Virus record (IMG/VR): IMGVR_UViG_637000107_000010
Source of the DNA: a virus
Taxonomy: Duplodnaviria; Heunggongvirae; Uroviricota; Caudoviricetes
Strand: one strand, 5' to 3'
DNA length: 64,000 nucleotides
Of this stretch, positions 27,001 through 33,000 are shown piece after piece. Position 1 is the first letter of the stretch. Each line of letters starts with the position of its first letter. The position numbers are program-made.

Positions 27001-30000
27001 TACGTCATCGTACTGGCCGGGCAGTCCAATGCCATGGCTTACGGTGAAGGGCTTCCGCTGCCGGATTCATACGATGCTCCGGATCCGCGCATTAAACAGC
27101 TGGCGCGCCGCAGTACAGTGACGCCGGGCGGGGCTGCCTGCAGATATAACGATATTATTCCGGCTGACCACTGTCTGCATGATGTGCAGGATATGAGTAC
27201 GCTGAATCATCCGANGGCTGACCTGAGCAAAGGGCAGTACGGCTGTGTCGGCCAGGGNTTACATATTGCCAAAAAACTGCTCCCGTATATCCCGAATAAC
27301 GCGGGGATCCTGCTGGTACCATGCTGTCGTGGTGGTTCGGCATTTACCCAGGGCGCGGAGGGGACATTCAGCGAGTCCACGGGGGCCAGNCAGGATTCGG
27401 CACGCTGGGGGGTGGGCAAGCCGTTATATCAGGATCTGATTTCCCGCACAAAAGCGGCATTGCAGAAAAATCCCAAAAACGTTCTGCTGGCCGTCTGCTG
27501 GATGCAGGGNGAGTTTGACATGAGCGCCGCCACCCACGCACAGCAACCTGCGCTGTTTACAGCCATGCTGNCACAGTTTCGTGCTGACCTCTCCGTGTTT
27601 AACGCGCAGTGCCATGGTGGCAGTGCTGCAGATGTGCCGTGGATTTGTGGTGANACGACGTATTACTGGAAAAATACNTACGNNACCCAGTACNACACCN
27701 TGTTACGGNGNGTANAAAAACANGGGAGAGTGAGGGCGTTTATTTTGTGCCCTTCATGACAGACGGTAACGGCGTCAATACCGCCACTAACGCGCCGGCA
27801 GAAGATCCGGATATTCCGGCATCAGGATATTACGGTGCGGCATCGAGAACGAATGGAAACCAGGTATCATCAAACCGCCCGACACATTTCAGTTCATGGG
27901 CGCGCAGGAGCATTATTCCGGATCGTNTGGCAACCGCTATTCTGAACGCAGCCGGGCGCACCTCNGCCTTCATCAGTGGTAAGGCACCGGAAATCAAACC
28001 CTCGCCCGGCGGCAACACGCCATCGGGTCCGTCTGCAGATACGTCCGTTCGCACAATCTCCCTGCTGCCGGCAGCCGGANAGGCTGCTGCGCAGGGCTGG
28101 AGCATTAAGGATGGCGGAATTCAGTTGTCAGATGGTGTATTTAAGATCACCAGGCAGAGCAATAAAACCTGGTCCCTGACGCATCCGGTGGATGACGCAA
28201 TTACCCTGCTGACACAGGGCGGCAGACTGAACTGTAAGTTCCGCCTGTCAGGCGCACTGACCAACAATCAGTTCGGGCTGGGGATTTATCTGTATACGGA
28301 TGCTCCCGTTCCTGATGGTGTGGCGATGACGGGTACCGGTAATCCGTTCCTGATGTCGTACTTCACTCAGACCACTGACGGCAGAGTGAATCTGATGCAT
28401 CACAGGAAAGCCGGAAACACGAAGCTGGGGGAGTTCGGCGATTACGGTAACGACTGGCAGACGCTGGAGCTGGTGTTCACCGCCGGCAGTGCCACGGTTA
28501 CTCCGAAACTGAATGGAGTGGCTGGCCCGGCATTCCAGGTTATAAAAGACAGTCTGACACTGGGACTGAATGCGCTGACGCTGACGGATGTTACAAAAAA
28601 TGCAGCGTATGGCGTTGAGATAGAAAGTCTGGTGCTGGAGATAAATGCACCGGCAGCATAATAAAAAAAGAGCCAGCGACTGACCTGAAAGAAGACGCTG
28701 GCTAAAAGGCCTTATATGTTTGTAGAGACTTATTTTTCACAGACAGCAATGATGCCTGTCAATATATTATCAATATGCGGATTGAACCGCCCCGGAAATC
28801 CTGGAGACTAAACTCCCTGAGAAAGAGGTAAACAGGATGACTAAAAATACTCGTTTTTCCCCCGAAGTCCGTCAGCGGGCGATTCGTATGGTTCTGGAAA
28901 GTCAGGATGAATATGACTCACAGTGGGCGGCAATTTGTTCCATTGCCCCAAAGATTGGCTGTACGCCGGAGACTCTGCGTGTCTGGGTTCGCCAGCATGA
29001 GCGGGATACCGGGGGCGGTGATGGTGGGCTCACCAGCGCTGAACGTCAGCGTCTGAAAGAGCTGGAACGTGAAAATCGTGAACTGCGCCGCAGTAACGAT
29101 ATCCTTCGCCAGGCTTCCGCTTATTTTGCGAAGGCGGAGTTCGACCGCCTCTGGAAAAAATGATGCCACTGCTGGATAAGCTGCGTGAGCAGTACGGGGT
29201 CGGACCGGTATGCAGCGAACTGCATATTGCCCCGTCAACGTATTACCATTGTCAGCAACAGCGACATCATCCGGATAAACGCAGTGCCCGTGCGCAGCAC
29301 GACGACTGGCTGAAGAGAGAGATACAGCGCGTATACGATGAAAATCATCAGGTGTACGGTGTGCGTAAAGTCTGGCGTCAGTTGTTACGGGAAGGAATCA
29401 GGGTGGCCAGATGTACAGTGGCACGTCTCATGGCGGTTATGGGACTTGCCGGTGTTCTCCGGGGTAAAAAGGTCCGTACGACCNTCAGCCGGAAAGCCGT
29501 TGCCGCAGGCGACCGCGTAAACCGTCAGTTCGTGGCAGAACGACCTGACCAGCTGTGGGTGGCTGATTTTACTTACGTCAGCACATGGCAGGGCTTCGTC
29601 TATGTGGCGTTCATCATTGATGTGTTTGCCGGATACATCGTGGGGTGGCGGGTCTCATCGTCTATGGAAACGACATTCGTGCTGAATGCGCTGGAGCAGG
29701 CGTTGTGGGCCCGTCGTCCGTCTGGCACCATCCATCACAGCGATAAAGGCTCTCAGTATGTGTCACTGGCCTATACGGAGCGACTAAAAGAAGCCGGATT
29801 ACTGGCATCAACAGGGAGTACAGGCGACTCGTATGACAACGCGATGGCTGAGAGCATCAATGGTCTTTACAAAGCGGAGGTAATACACCGTAAGAGCTGG
29901 AAAAACCGTGCAGAAGTGGAACTGGCCACACTAACGTGGGTGGACTGGTATAACAATCGACGATTGCTGGGAAGGCTGGGCCATACTCCTCCGGCAGAAG

Positions 30001-33000
30001 CAGAAAAAGCTTATTATGCTTCCATCGGAAACGATGATCTGGCAGCCTGAGTTCACAGATAAAACACTCTCCAGGAAACCCGGGGCGGTTCACCCATTTC
30101 ATTCAGCAGACGTTCACGGGCCATTTCCAGCGAACAGTCAGGATCAGCCACGCACTGTGCCTGAAGCGTCTGATAGCGACCGCCGAACATGGCAAACAGA
30201 TCGTTAATGCCTGACATGCGGGCTTTCTGCTCAGCCATAACGCGGGCGCGAATGGTCGCCTCATCAGACACTGCCGGTACCGGTGATGGTTCTGTTACNG
30301 CCGGTGCAGGGATTGTCACTGTGGTATCACGCGGGGCACTGTTGCGTGGCGGAGTAATCATGTTTCGGATGGATTCCGGCATCTTTTTAAATTCCTCTGT
30401 ACGTTTTGACTGAATACATGCCATTGCCTCAACAGCGGGTGTCACCTGGTCAGCAAATCCGTGTGCCAGACATTCGGCACCGGACATCCAGGTTTCATCC
30501 GCCAGCATGGCGGCAATTTCATCGGTGGTTTTTCCGGTTTTCTGCGCATAGGCTGGCAACAGTACCGATTCGACTTTATCCAGCAAATCGGCATAACTGC
30601 GCATATCCTCAGCATCCCCGCCACTGAATCCCCATGGCTTATGGATCATCATGAAGGCATTTTCCGGCATAATGACCGTATCACCGGCCATCGCAATCAC
30701 AGATGCCATCGAGGCGGCAACGCCATCCACATACACGGTAATGGTCGCCCCCTGATTTTTCAGGGCATTAAAAATGGCGATGCCTTCAAAGACATCGCCA
30801 CCCGGTGAATTGATATTGGAGATTAATGTGGGTGATATCACCCAGTGCATTCAGTTNGCTGACAAACTGCTTCGCGGTAACTCCCCAGAAACCAATCTCG
30901 TCATAAATATAAATATCCGCGTACCCGGCCCCCCAGCTTGCATCTGAACCAGGATTTATTCTTCATGCTGGCTTTCGGTGTCGCGCTGATTGTCGTCAGT
31001 CGGCNTGTNCTCTTTGTGTGAGGGNCAGATAAANACAGCCCAGTTTGTGTTTATCATTNAACCTTGGGNGAGTTGACTCATCGGATTGGCCCACGGACGC
31101 ACCAGTCAGATTCTGCGTTGCCCACCCGGATCTGAATTCTCCAGGCTTCAGCTTCCTTAACNGGGTCGATCCACGGCATCACCGGACCGGAATACGTCGC
31201 GTTATATAGCGTTTTCATCTCCACATCCGCCGGAATTTTCAGNNGACCTGCCGCAACCACCATATTCAGCCATGTCCGGTACACCGGGCGGGTTACCGCG
31301 CCAATAAAACAGTCCTGCAGGATCAGGTAACCATCCGTGGACTCGACCAGCTCCTGCCGCTGGGCGCTGTAGGTGCCGTTATAGTTACGCGCCGCACTGG
31401 AAAAACTCAGACGACTGCCTGCTGCCACTGCACGCAACTGGCCGTTGCGGAAAGTTTCAAGGTTGGGATTGGGACGGTCAGATTTGACCATGCCGATATC
31501 CTCGCCCTTGCGCAAATCGTCATAAATAATACCCGGGGTGATATGGACTTCCCGCTCGGTCTCTTTGATCCCCNGGATCTTCATAGTCCTGTCCGTCACC
31601 TTTACGGATATACAGTCCCAGCGCCGCAGCAATACNGCGCCGCTGTCAGTTCCGCATCCTCATACTCCTTAAGGGCACTGATCCGCATCAGCACCCCCGA
31701 TAACATGGATGAGCCTCGCGTCTGATGCAGACGACGAGTGAACTTCAGGTGGATCATTTTTCCGGCAGCGATTTCTTTCGTATCACTCTGNCGGCCGCTG
31801 ACCGGATAATTTTTATAAACCAGATATTTTTTCGGTCTTCCCCACTCATCAAAGAAAAACCCCCCTGATTCAGTTCCGGCGGATTCAATCAGTGCGCATG
31901 GGAAACAAAATCCGGNCTCCATCCGCCTCAAGCCAGAAATGGCACTCCCGCCGTCCGTTCCAGACCGTTTCCCGCACCACTGACCATCTGCGCAAACACT
32001 TCACCATCCCGCAGCCAGGTCCGCAGCAGTAAACGTTCAAGCACAGGACGGGTATACTGCCCTGTCACATCCGGACTCACGGACCATTCAGCCCACAAAC
32101 GGCGGATATCCGCAGCCAGCTCAGCCGCCATTTCCCCGTTTTTTNGTAATGGCTGAGGCTCCACAATAATTCCCCTGGCACCAATCACCCGCTCTTCCAG
32201 CTTGTCAAACACACCAATCACCAGGTCATGATTGATATCCAGAAAACGGGCCTGCTCCCGCAGGGAAACCGCACCGTATTTACTGAGCTGATCAGCAGAG
32301 CGATTTTCCCGCCGGGCTTTATGTGTCCGGGTCGGTTTCACCGCCTCATAGGCCATGATTAACGCCCTTGAACGCAGTCTGGCTGCTTTCCACCCGGGGG
32401 AAAACACGCCGATCACATCATCAATAATTGCCATTAAAACCTCGCCAGTTTAAATCCCGGTTTTCCCCGCCTGCGGCTCACCATCGCGGCAAGCCTGCGT
32501 TCCCACTCCTGACGTCCGGCGCGGATCTGAGAAAGGCTTTCCAGCGTCAGTTGCTGCCCGTTGAAGATGACAGACTTTCCCTCCAGTACGGCCATTTCCG
32601 CTTCACGGTACCGCTGTATCATTTCTCTGGCTTCTTCTGTGCTCACAACCAGCCTCCTGATGTTATCCATGGATTATCTTCCGCACGCTCCGTCCGCAGT
32701 TTTTTCTTCCGGCGACGGCGTTTTTCTGCCCCGGCCGTCAGTTCCGGGGATACCGTTTCACCAGAACGCTCCTGCGGGAAGACGAGCCACGTTTCCCGCT
32801 GTGCCCAGTCCGGTGCGGAGGGCCAGCGGATCTTTTCGTAACCATGCAGAACGGCAAGCGCATCCGCATAAACCANCAGGTCAAACGCTTCGTTAGCGCC
32901 CCTGCCCGGTTTTCGCCATTTTCCGTCACTGCCGCGCTCTTCATAGGTCAGCTCATCGTAAAACCACCGCCCCAGCCAGTCGGGAAAGTGGATATAGTTC

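What the first reader, a model, noticed from the sequence alone, without database searches (positions are those of the whole stretch)
28783..30092. Second IS629 copy sits at an inversion-type junction between nanS-p and a truncated prohead protease
On its left this IS629 abuts DNA downstream of nanS-p, at a position within ~5 bp of where the holin-upstream sequence begins in the sibling copy (position ~1040). On its right it truncates the 3' end of a minus-strand ClpP-like protease gene. The 8-kb block that follows (protease-portal-terL-terS-Rz-R-S) is inverted relative to nanS-p and ends at ~38248 with the same holin-upstream sequence. The pattern suggests an IS629-associated inversion of the lysis/packaging block.
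Basis: partly seen in the sequence, partly recalled or inferred. Interest (0 to 1): 0.55.

Follow-up and report, generated by a model that had tools for sequence, protein, structure and literature searches.

The report
IS629 hybrid junction: assembly chimera
The odd IS629 junction is written in the sequence exactly as described, but it is most likely a stitching error in the 2001 E. coli O157:H7 EDL933 genome assembly, which joined pieces of three look-alike prophages, and not a biological inversion at this locus.

Summary
A 1,310-bp IS629 lies at 28783-30092, nanS-p lies on its left, and on its right is a minus-strand block (truncated ClpP protease, portal, terL, terS, Rz, R, S) ending at 38246.

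The window is AE005174.2:1,867,573-1,931,572, the original 2001 EDL933 assembly, in its CP-933O region.

- **Left junction.** It is the nanS-p/IS629 junction of prophage CP-933M (Sp4), identical in 282 complete genomes.
- **Right junction.** It is the IS629 insertion in the protease gene of the Stx1 prophage CP-933V (Sp15), found in 30 genomes.
- **Both together.** None of 5,426 complete E. coli genomes, including later EDL933 assemblies, has both junctions on one IS629.
- **The block is composite.** 30093 to about 35950 is CP-933V DNA. About 35761 to 38246 is CP-933M DNA. The switch lies inside a 189-bp stretch identical in both.
- **True locus.** In re-sequenced EDL933 this place holds a canonical prophage (nanS-p, S, R, Rz, terS) with no IS629.
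- **Quality signals.** The window has 122 ambiguous bases enriched at sites where paralogous prophages differ, a read-end-like low-quality stretch, and a tail region patched from four loci.

One part is real: the S-R-Rz cassette is genuinely inverted next to IS629 in CP-933M/Sp4 across O157:H7. That is long annotated. Interest is low.

The parts
26809..28661 (+). nanS-p (SASA-type esterase), written as two ORFs (26809-27759 and 27747-28661) because of a frameshift. It contains 17-19 ambiguous bases and is a mosaic of paralogues.
   Evidence: Pfam DUF1737, SASA and DUF6645. The 26.5-28.0 kb tiles match no real EDL933 locus above 97%. 13 of 19 N positions here lie on sites where the paralogues differ, against 0 of 55 nearby controls.
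28001..28782 (+). 3' end of nanS-p plus downstream DNA, up to the left junction (J6) with IS629. This is CP-933M/Sp4-derived sequence.
   Evidence: 99.8-100% identical to CP-933M of CP008957. The junction query 28480-29080 is 100% identical in 282 complete genomes, always in Sp4 context.
28783..30092 (+). IS629 (IS3 family), 1,310 bp, with orfA 28837-29163 and orfB 29160-30050. As written it is a composite: the left junction comes from CP-933M and the right junction from CP-933V. It has no target-site duplication (GAT on the left, CCC on the right).
   Evidence: No genome carries both junctions on one copy. The real CP-933M copy in EDL933 and Sakai lacks IS positions 687-923, so the switch must lie within 28783-29468.
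30053..30850 (-). N-terminal part of the ClpP-like prohead protease/capsid fusion gene, cut by IS629. This is the CP-933V/Sp15 junction (J7).
   Evidence: PF00574. The junction query 29790-30400 is 99.8% identical in 30 genomes, in Sakai Sp15 (ECs_2960 pseudogene) and EDL933 CP-933V. The gene is intact at 674 aa in L008.
30990..31150 (.). Low-quality stretch that looks like abutting read ends. It carries dense substitutions, deletions and N relative to CP-933V.
   Evidence: 36 substitutions, 35 deletions and 9 N within 31001-31250, while the flanks are identical to CP-933V.
30851..34767 (-). Portal and terL of CP-933V type, broken into fragment ORFs by single-base insertions and deletions in the record.
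   Evidence: ORF list. GpA_ATPase and GpA_nuclease domains in 33148-34767. The genes are intact in CP008957 CP-933V. There are 7 inserted bases at 31751-32000 and 1 at 33001-33250.
34764..35240 (-). terS (DUF1441), CP-933V type.
   Evidence: Pfam DUF1441. 100% identical to CP-933V.
35695..36219 (-). Rz. The source switches here from CP-933V (left) to CP-933M (right), inside the stretch 35761-35949, which is 189 bp identical in both prophages.
   Evidence: Three-way alignment. PF03245.
36498..37925 (-). Endolysin R (36498-37031) and holin S (37719-37925), CP-933M type. This cassette is genuinely inverted in Sp4/CP-933M.
   Evidence: 100% identical to CP-933M. Pfam Phage_lysozyme and Phage_holin_2_1. 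Same order in Sakai, TW14359 and EDL933.
38246..38247 (.). J9, the IS-less right-hand junction of the real Sp4 inversion. The holin-upstream sequence (reverse orientation) meets the 5' stub of ylcI and the nu1-upstream DNA.
   Evidence: Query 37500-39200 is 100% identical in 294 genomes. Junction sequences are shown. Compared with the un-inverted order (L004, L013), 5 bp (TGTTT) and 107 bp of ylcI are missing.
38937..41376 (+). ISEc8 (IS66 family) inserted in nu1 of CP-933M/Sp4. The prophage's own terL, portal and S49 protease follow in forward orientation.
3463..4772 (-). Its inner junction (ISEc8'/IS629) is that of prophage Sp17. Its outer junction was not matched in the real genomes inspected.

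Best explanation
The IS629 at 28783-30092 and the 'inverted' 8-kb block are a repeat-induced assembly chimera in the 2001 EDL933 genome record (AE005174.2, CP-933O region).

**How the chimera was built (inferred).** Reads from three near-identical lambdoid prophages were merged.
1. The consensus follows the true local prophage (right half of CP-933O) up to nanS-p.
2. Inside nanS-p it slides into CP-933M (Sp4) sequence and reaches the CP-933M nanS-p/IS629 junction.
3. Inside IS629 it changes to the CP-933V (Sp15, Stx1 phage) copy, which interrupts the prohead protease gene.
4. It runs through CP-933V protease', portal, terL and terS.
5. Inside a 189-bp stretch of Rz identical in both phages it changes back to CP-933M.
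6. It then continues through CP-933M's R, S, junction J9, ISEc8 and late genes.

**Why the block looks inverted.** CP-933V lies in the opposite chromosomal orientation. CP-933M's own lysis cassette is also truly inverted: a 4-kb IS629-adjacent inversion shared by O157:H7.

**Shown versus inferred.** Shown: the sources of each segment, the positions of the switches inside repeats, the absence of the arrangement elsewhere, and the quality signals. Inferred: that the merging happened at assembly rather than in the cell.
For: 1. **Source.** The window is exactly AE005174.2:1,867,573-1,931,572. Latif et al. 2014 (PMC4132626) state that this record has more than 6,000 ambiguous calls, of which 2,413 are non-N ambiguity codes.
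2. **Junction census.** The left junction is in 282 genomes, always in Sp4. The right junction is in 30 genomes, always in Sp15/CP-933V. Both on one IS: 0 of 5,426 genomes. For other EDL933-labelled or EDL933-derived assemblies (CP008957, CP120944, CP124740, WS4202) the match starts only at the IS.
3. **Block continuity.** The order terS(V)-Rz-R-S-J9 is contiguous in 0 of 5,426 genomes.
4. **True locus.** At this place CP008957 has a canonical prophage: nanS-p, S, ydfR, R, ant, Rz, pch, ylcI, nu1, with no IS629.
5. **Tile map.** Each segment is about 100% identical to a different real EDL933 locus. The tail region at 50.5-60 kb is a patchwork of 0.5-2 kb patches from four loci.
6. **Switch positions.** Every switch lies in a repeat: nanS-p, IS629, and the 189-bp identical stretch in Rz.
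7. **Ambiguous bases.** There are 122. They fall on paralogue-variable sites at 38 of 116 positions, against 7 of 334 controls.
8. **Low-quality sequence.** A stretch at about 30990-31150 and scattered 1-bp indels fragment portal and terL, which are intact in CP008957.
9. **Target duplication.** There is none at this IS (GAT/CCC), whereas the real CP-933V insertion has CCC/CCC.
Against: - No reads or traces could be examined, so the error is inferred from independent assemblies, not shown directly.
- Homologous recombination at the same repeats would give the same sequence. Inter-prophage recombination does occur in O157 (Sp5/Sp15 chimeras, PMC2669165).
- Three independent short-read draft contigs (L008, L009, L011) carry the same CP-933M/CP-933V join in Rz together with J9. 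That join is therefore either a recurrent mis-join at the 189-bp repeat or real in some strains.
- The outer junction of the sibling IS629 (4772/4773) does not lie in a repeat, so a simple repeat collapse does not explain it.
Confidence: 0.85

Rival explanations
1. The arrangement is real and arose by recombination. In the sequenced 2001 stock, a double crossover or gene conversion between CP-933M and CP-933V copied about 5.7 kb of Stx1-prophage DNA next to nanS-p. The two prophages have their IS629 and lysis genes in the same chromosomal orientation, about 1.7 Mb apart. One crossover would lie in IS629 and the other in the 189-bp Rz repeat. The copied DNA (IS629 right part, protease', portal, terL, terS, Rz 3' end) would replace ylcI'-pchA.
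For: - Both switch points lie in sequence identical between the two loci, which is what homologous recombination needs.
- In Sakai and EDL933 the IS629 and lysis genes of Sp4 and Sp15 are co-oriented.
- Prophage-prophage recombination is documented in O157 (PMC2669165; PMC7430833).
- Draft contigs L008, L009 and L011 show the same Rz join.
Against: - It is absent from every later EDL933 assembly and from all 5,426 complete genomes.
- The DNA to the left is not CP-933M but the CP-933O early region, so further crossovers would be needed.
- The 50.5-60 kb patchwork from four loci, the ambiguity codes on paralogue-variable sites and the read-end-like stretch are assembly signatures, not recombination signatures.
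- The true locus in CP008957 is canonical.
Confidence: 0.09
2. One reading: IS629 mediated an inversion of this prophage's own lysis and packaging block in situ. The segment from holin-upstream to the protease gene was flipped, either by intramolecular transposition or by recombination between two inverted IS629 copies.
For: - IS629 sits within 0-5 bp of the nanS-p/holin-upstream boundary, and the block ends with holin-upstream sequence in reverse.
- A genuine IS629-adjacent inversion of S-R-Rz-pchA-ylcI' exists in Sp4/CP-933M.
Against: - There is only one IS629, with none at 38246, and no direct or inverted target duplication.
- The right junction is identical to a simple CCC-duplicated insertion in Sp15/CP-933V.
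- The prophage's own, different-type packaging genes (nu1'::ISEc8, terL, portal, S49 protease) lie forward at 41377 onward, so the inverted set is foreign.
- The right breakpoint of the real inversion is in ylcI, not in a protease gene.
Confidence: 0.03
3. The hybrid is one end of a large chromosomal inversion between prophages. O157:H7 has many such rearrangements, roughly symmetric about the replication terminus. Here the crossover would lie in IS629.
For: - Large prophage-bounded inversions are common in O157 (PMC7430833).
- Coordinates indicate an Sp4-Sp17 inversion polymorphism of about 2.3 Mb among strains.
Against: - The IS629 copies of Sp4 and Sp15 are in the same orientation in Sakai and EDL933. 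A single crossover would therefore delete or duplicate 1.7 Mb, not invert it.
- The sequence returns to CP-933M only 5.7 kb later, which an inversion end would not do.
Confidence: 0.02

Closest known systems
IS629 (also annotated IS1203; IS3 family) copies of E. coli O157:H7: the Sakai Sp4 copy (ECs_1089/1090) and the Sp15 copy (ECs_2958/2959)
   Same: Same element: 1,310 bp, orfA and orfB, same terminal repeats, at least 99.5% identity. The left flank is identical to the Sp4 copy and the right flank to the Sp15 copy.
   Different: No real copy has this pair of flanks. The real Sp15 copy has a CCC target duplication. The real Sp4 copy in EDL933 and Sakai carries a 237-bp internal deletion that is absent here.
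The inverted lysis cassette of prophage Sp4/CP-933M
   Same: Window 35950-38246 plus J9 and ISEc8 is 100% identical to it. It is a real 4-kb inversion with IS629 at one end.
   Different: In the real prophage the inverted segment runs S-R-Rz-pchA-ylcI' and abuts IS629. Here pchA-ylcI' is replaced by CP-933V packaging genes.
Repeat-induced misassembly and collapsed paralogues in the 2001 EDL933 record
   Same: The window is that record. It shows the ambiguity codes described by Latif et al. 2014 (PMC4132626). Switches occur in repeats, and a patchwork consensus is present.
   Different: I found no paper that names this particular junction as an error. Literature searches gave nothing explicit.
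Prophage-mediated large chromosomal inversions and inter-prophage recombination in O157:H7
   Same: They use the same substrate, near-identical prophage segments and IS copies (PMC7430833; PMC2669165).
   Different: Those events give collinear chimeric prophages at two distant ends and are seen in long-read assemblies. This arrangement is seen in none.

Membership tests
IS629 / IS3 family insertion sequence | About 1.3 kb element with two overlapping ORFs, orfA (HTH) and orfB (DDE/rve integrase core) | tested here: met
   1,310 bp. orfA 28837-29163 matches HTH_Tnp_1. orfB 29160-30050 matches rve and HTH_21. RefSeq annotates the identical copies as 'IS3-like element IS1203 family transposase, programmed frameshift'.
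IS629 / IS3 family insertion sequence | Terminal inverted repeats | tested here: met
   The left end is TGAACCGCCCCGG. The reverse complement of the right end is also TGAACCGCCCCGG.
IS629 / IS3 family insertion sequence | Short (3-bp) direct target-site duplication flanking a simple insertion | tested here: not met
   The flanks are GAT and CCC. The real CP-933V copy has CCC/CCC. This is as expected if the two flanks come from different loci.
IS-mediated inversion | Two inverted IS copies flanking the inverted segment, or one IS plus inverted target duplications at both breakpoints | tested here: not met
   There is no IS and no duplicated or inverted 3-bp at 38246. The only other IS629 in the window (3463-4772) lies 24 kb away on the other side.
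IS-mediated inversion | The inverted segment is the locus's own DNA, so that un-inverting it restores a canonical gene order | tested here: not met
   Un-inverting gives nanS-p, S, R, Rz, terS(DUF1441), terL, portal, protease', followed by a second and different packaging set (nu1'::ISEc8, terL, portal, S49). The segment is a CP-933V plus CP-933M composite.
Repeat-induced assembly chimera | Each flank matches a different locus in an independent assembly of the same strain | tested here: met
   28.0-29.47 kb matches CP-933M at 100%. 29.5-35.95 kb matches CP-933V at 100% outside the low-quality stretch. 35.95-50.5 kb matches CP-933M at 100%.
Repeat-induced assembly chimera | Switch points lie inside sequence shared by the source loci | tested here: met
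   The switches lie in IS629 (28783-29468), in the 189-bp identical stretch of Rz (35761-35949), and in the nanS-p paralogues.
Repeat-induced assembly chimera | The arrangement is absent from independent assemblies of the same strain | tested here: met
   0 of 5,426 genomes carry it, including CP008957, CP120944, CP124740 and WS4202. The true locus is canonical.
Repeat-induced assembly chimera | Local signs of mixed or poor read support | tested here: met
   122 ambiguity positions are enriched at paralogue-variable sites (38/116 against 7/334). There is a read-end-like stretch at 30990-31150 and indels that break portal and terL.
Repeat-induced assembly chimera | No reads or clones span the joins | not testable with these tools
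   Traces and reads are not available here.
Prophage-mediated large chromosomal inversion (O157 type) | Recombining repeats are in inverted orientation, and the partner's sequence continues beyond the crossover | tested here: not met
   The Sp4 and Sp15 IS629 copies are co-oriented. The sequence returns to CP-933M after 5.7 kb.

The most novel reading that the evidence does not exclude
The CP-933M/CP-933V join is real in some O157:H7 cells, either the 2001 EDL933 stock or the strains behind draft contigs L008, L009 and L011. In that case a long-range gene conversion or double crossover between two prophages 1.7 Mb apart moved kilobases of Stx1-prophage packaging genes into Sp4 and removed the LEE regulator gene pchA.
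Probability: 0.07. Interest if true: 0.3.

Novelty: not a real feature. Interest (0 to 1): 0.07.

Why it matters
The value is cautionary. AE005174/NC_002655 was for years the most-used O157:H7 reference. Its CP-933O region (at least window 26.5-60 kb) does not represent the strain.

Consequences for anyone using this record:
- Gene counts, IS629 site lists, prophage maps and pseudogene calls here are unreliable. The affected calls include the split nanS-p, the fragmented portal and terL, an extra truncated protease and an extra copy of CP-933M late genes.
- Genome scans that flag 'rearrangements' in this record should be checked against CP008957 first.

The real biology underneath is already annotated in Sakai and in RefSeq genomes: IS629 in the Sp15 protease gene, and the IS629-adjacent inverted lysis cassette and ISEc8-disrupted nu1 of Sp4.

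Tried and rejected
1. **Inversion between the two IS629 copies in the window (3463-4772 and 28783-30092).** Undoing it does not restore any canonical junction. The outer flank of the first copy is tail-fibre DNA, not the protease C-terminal part.
2. **Large Sp4-Sp15 chromosomal inversion.** Rejected because the copies are co-oriented and the sequence returns to CP-933M within 5.7 kb.
It is actually in Rz at 35761-35949. Position 38246 is the conserved Sp4 junction.
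4. **SNP mapping of the crossover inside IS629.** The EDL933 copies are identical apart from the 237-bp deletion, so the switch can only be bounded to 28783-29468.
5. **The Rz protein as a marker of chimerism.** The same allele occurs naturally in other phages (L010, L012, L013, L015), so the allele alone proves nothing.
6. **Literature search for an explicit statement that CP-933O of AE005174 is misassembled.** Nothing was found.
7. **Whether AE005174 also carries the canonical CP-933M and CP-933V loci, which would make this an extra copy.** Not tested. The look-up tools only accept window proteins.

Full report
**1. What is written in the window**

A self-comparison shows two IS629 copies in inverted orientation, at 3463-4772 and 28783-30092 (1,310 nt, 99%). 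It also shows three ISEc8 copies or part-copies (2187-3462, 7492-9937, 38937-41376). Two further repeats matter here:
- Window 1-1042 equals 27744-28784 (nanS-p 3' end plus downstream).
- Window 1046-1614 equals the reverse complement of 38246-37680 (holin-upstream plus holin).

- IS629 orfA and orfB.
- A ClpP-type protease N-terminal part (30053-30850, minus strand) that runs into the IS.
- A GpA-type terL fragment.
- A DUF1441-type terS.
- Rz, endolysin and holin, all on the minus strand.
- nanS-p on the plus strand, split into two ORFs.

**2. Where each junction lives in real genomes**

I searched 5,426 complete E. coli genomes.

| Query (window) | What it covers | Result |
|---|---|---|
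| 28480-29080 | Left junction, nanS-p/IS629 | 100% identical in 282 genomes, always in prophage Sp4/CP-933M |
| 29790-30400 | Right junction, IS629/protease' | Found in 30 genomes, always in the Stx1 prophage Sp15/CP-933V |
| 28000-31000 | Both junctions on one IS | No genome; best coverage 70-74%, one side only |
| 37500-39200 | S, junction at 38246, start of ISEc8 | 100% identical in 294 genomes, again in Sp4 |

In Sp4 the order is nanS-p, IS629, ylcI', pchA(-), Rz(-), R(-), S(-), junction, ISEc8, nu1'.

In Sp15 the IS splits a protease/scaffold gene (ECs_2957 and the ECs_2960 pseudogene).

For the 3-kb query, assemblies labelled or derived from EDL933 (CP008957, CP120944, CP124740, WS4202) match only from the IS start onward.

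**3. The block is composite**

- Window 30093 to about 35950 is identical to CP-933V of re-sequenced EDL933, apart from low-quality stretches.
- From about 35761 onward the window is identical to CP-933M.
- The two prophages are identical over 35761-35949 (189 bp inside Rz), so the switch lies there and not at 38246.
- No complete genome has terS(V)-Rz-R-S-junction as one contiguous piece.

**4. Target-site evidence**

- The real CP-933V IS629 has a CCC/CCC duplication, so it is a simple insertion.
- The window's copy has GAT on the left and CCC on the right.
- The real CP-933M copy has GAT and TTA. This is consistent with a rearrangement at that IS.

Comparison with un-inverted relatives (L004 and the metagenome contig L013) shows how the real Sp4 inversion differs from the ancestral order. 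It lost 5 bp (TGTTT) between nanS-p-downstream and holin-upstream, and 107 bp of ylcI at the other breakpoint. No IS lies at the right junction.

**5. Provenance**

- A portal fragment ORF created by a frameshift (window 31931-32434) exists in one record only, AE005174.2.
- The fetched stretch is base-for-base identical to the window. The window is therefore AE005174.2:1,867,573-1,931,572, and the IS629 lies at 1,896,355-1,897,664.
- This is the 2001 EDL933 assembly. From my own knowledge of the Perna et al. map, not tested here, this is the CP-933O region.
- Latif et al. 2014 report more than 6,000 ambiguous calls in that record, 2,413 of them non-N ambiguity codes, and re-sequenced the strain for that reason (PMC4132626).

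**6. What the strain really has here**

In CP008957 the corresponding place holds two canonical tandem prophages. The right one reads nanS-p, S, ydfR, R, ant, Rz, pch, ylcI, nu1, terL and onward. It has no IS629 and no inverted block.

A 500-bp tile map of the window against four real EDL933 loci gives the following:

| Window (kb) | Best-matching real locus |
|---|---|
| 4.8-9.5 | Left prophage of CP-933O, 99-100% |
| 9.5-26.5 | Right prophage of CP-933O, 99-100% |
| 26.5-28.0 | No locus above 97%; 18 ambiguous bases |
| 28.0-29.47 | CP-933M, 99.8-100% |
| 29.5-35.95 | CP-933V, about 100% outside the low-quality stretch |
| 35.95-50.5 | CP-933M, 100% apart from N |
| 50.5-60 | Patchwork of 0.5-2 kb patches, each about 100% to a different one of the four loci |
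| 60-64 | Right prophage of CP-933O, 100% |

Such a patchwork, absent from later assemblies of the same strain, is what a consensus built from mixed paralogous reads looks like.

**7. Quality signals**

- The window has 122 scattered ambiguous bases, clustered at 27.2-28.1, 30.9-31.9 and 59.0-59.9 kb.
- They fall on positions where the real paralogous prophages differ in 38 of 116 cases, against 7 of 334 neighbouring control positions. Within nanS-p the figures are 13 of 19 against 0 of 55.
- About 900-1,050 bp to the right of the IS there is a stretch at 30990-31150 with 36 substitutions, 35 deletions and 9 N relative to CP-933V. It is flanked by perfect identity and looks like abutting read ends.
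- Single-base insertions and deletions break portal and terL, which are intact in CP008957.

**8. Conclusion on mechanism**

The most likely account is an assembly chimera, at about 0.85. The consensus path leaves the true locus in nanS-p and picks up the CP-933M nanS-p/IS629 junction. It crosses to the CP-933V IS629 copy somewhere in IS positions 1-686, because the real CP-933M copy lacks positions 687-923. It then returns to CP-933M in the 189-bp Rz repeat.

The block looks inverted for two reasons. CP-933V lies in the opposite orientation, and CP-933M's lysis cassette is genuinely inverted.

The step I cannot show is the read-level one.

**9. What speaks for a real event**

- Recombination at the same repeats would give the same sequence, and O157 prophages do recombine (PMC2669165; PMC7430833).
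- Three short-read draft contigs (L008, L009, L011) from other O157 strains carry J9-S-R-Rz joined to CP-933V-type terS through to the tail genes, with an intact protease and no IS629.
- The repeat (189 bp) probably exceeds the k-mer sizes typical of short-read assemblers; this is my assumption, as the assembly methods of these drafts were not checked.
- The two cassettes are co-oriented 1.7 Mb apart, so a single crossover would not be viable.
- No complete genome shows the join.
- On those grounds I read the drafts as the same mis-join recurring. This is inference and is left open.

**10. Comparison with what is known, and novelty**

- The element is an ordinary IS629.
- The real insertions and the Sp4 defects (nu1 disrupted by an IS) are annotated in Sakai and discussed by Asadulghani et al. 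2009.
- The hybrid junction itself is best filed as not a real feature.

Interest is low (0.07).

Noticed in passing
window 4772/4773 (outer end of the IS629 at 3463-4772): This IS629 also has mismatched flanks. Its inner junction (R'::ISEc8'::IS629) is that of prophage Sp17. Its outer end abuts tail-fibre DNA of the left CP-933O prophage, 312 bp beyond the position of the real Sp17 junction. Re-sequenced EDL933 has no IS629 at that tail-fibre site, and the best genome hits show the 312-bp offset. Unlike the other joins, this one does not lie in a repeat, so a simple collapse does not explain it.
   Followed up: partly
window 50500-60000: The tail and host-specificity region is a patchwork of 0.5-2 kb patches. 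Each patch is about 100% identical to a different real EDL933 prophage (right CP-933O, CP-933V, CP-933M, left CP-933O). There are 26 ambiguous bases at 59.0-59.9 kb.
   Followed up: partly
window 26809-28661: nanS-p is written as two ORFs because of a frameshift near 27703-27723. That spot lies in the densest cluster of ambiguous bases. The gene is a mosaic of at least three paralogue types.
   Followed up: partly
Sakai L003 22131-23203 and EDL933 L005 33462-34534, compared with TW14359 L002 9993-11302: The Sp4 IS629 copy carries a 237-bp internal deletion (IS positions 687-923) in Sakai and EDL933 but is full length in TW14359. In the window's copy, one N and two unique substitutions all fall inside that 237-bp segment (29484, 29612, 29685).
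   Followed up: partly
Record coordinates (for example FORC_044, 86-24 and strain 3384 against Sakai, EDL933 and Xuzhou21): In many O157:H7 genomes the Sp4 late-region junctions lie at about 3.5 Mb on the minus strand and the Sp17 junction at about 1.19-1.24 Mb on the plus strand. This is the mirror image of Sakai. It implies a widespread inversion polymorphism of about 2.3 Mb, with crossover upstream of the nanS-p/IS629 junction.
   Followed up: no
L008 (GCA_002195445.1 NHYA01000050.1), L009 (GCA_002194815.1 NHWD01000064.1) and L011 (GCA_900011015.1 FAWH01000139.1): These draft contigs join the Sp4 junction J9-S-R-Rz to CP-933V-type terS, terL, portal, an intact protease/capsid gene and tail genes, switching at the same 189-bp Rz repeat. 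No complete genome shows this. L008 and L009 both end at window-equivalent position 38372, which is not an obvious repeat boundary.
   Followed up: partly
L013 (ENA ERZ27232745 k141_60377): This metagenome contig carries the un-inverted order nanS-p-downstream, TGTTT, holin-upstream, S, R, Rz with the same sequence types as Sp4. It serves as an outgroup that fixes the breakpoints of the real Sp4 inversion.
   Followed up: yes
window 19925-19930: This is an empty site. Strain M1300706002 has an IS629 here in the early region of the same prophage (L004 26650-27959). The window and re-sequenced EDL933 do not.
   Followed up: no
window 35506-35760: The 3' end of Rz and about 190 bp downstream form a module shared at 99% or more by phages with quite different packaging modules: DUF1441/GpA type in CP-933V and HNH/Terminase_2 type in L010, L012, L013 and L015. 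It is a natural mosaic boundary among lambdoid phages.
   Followed up: partly
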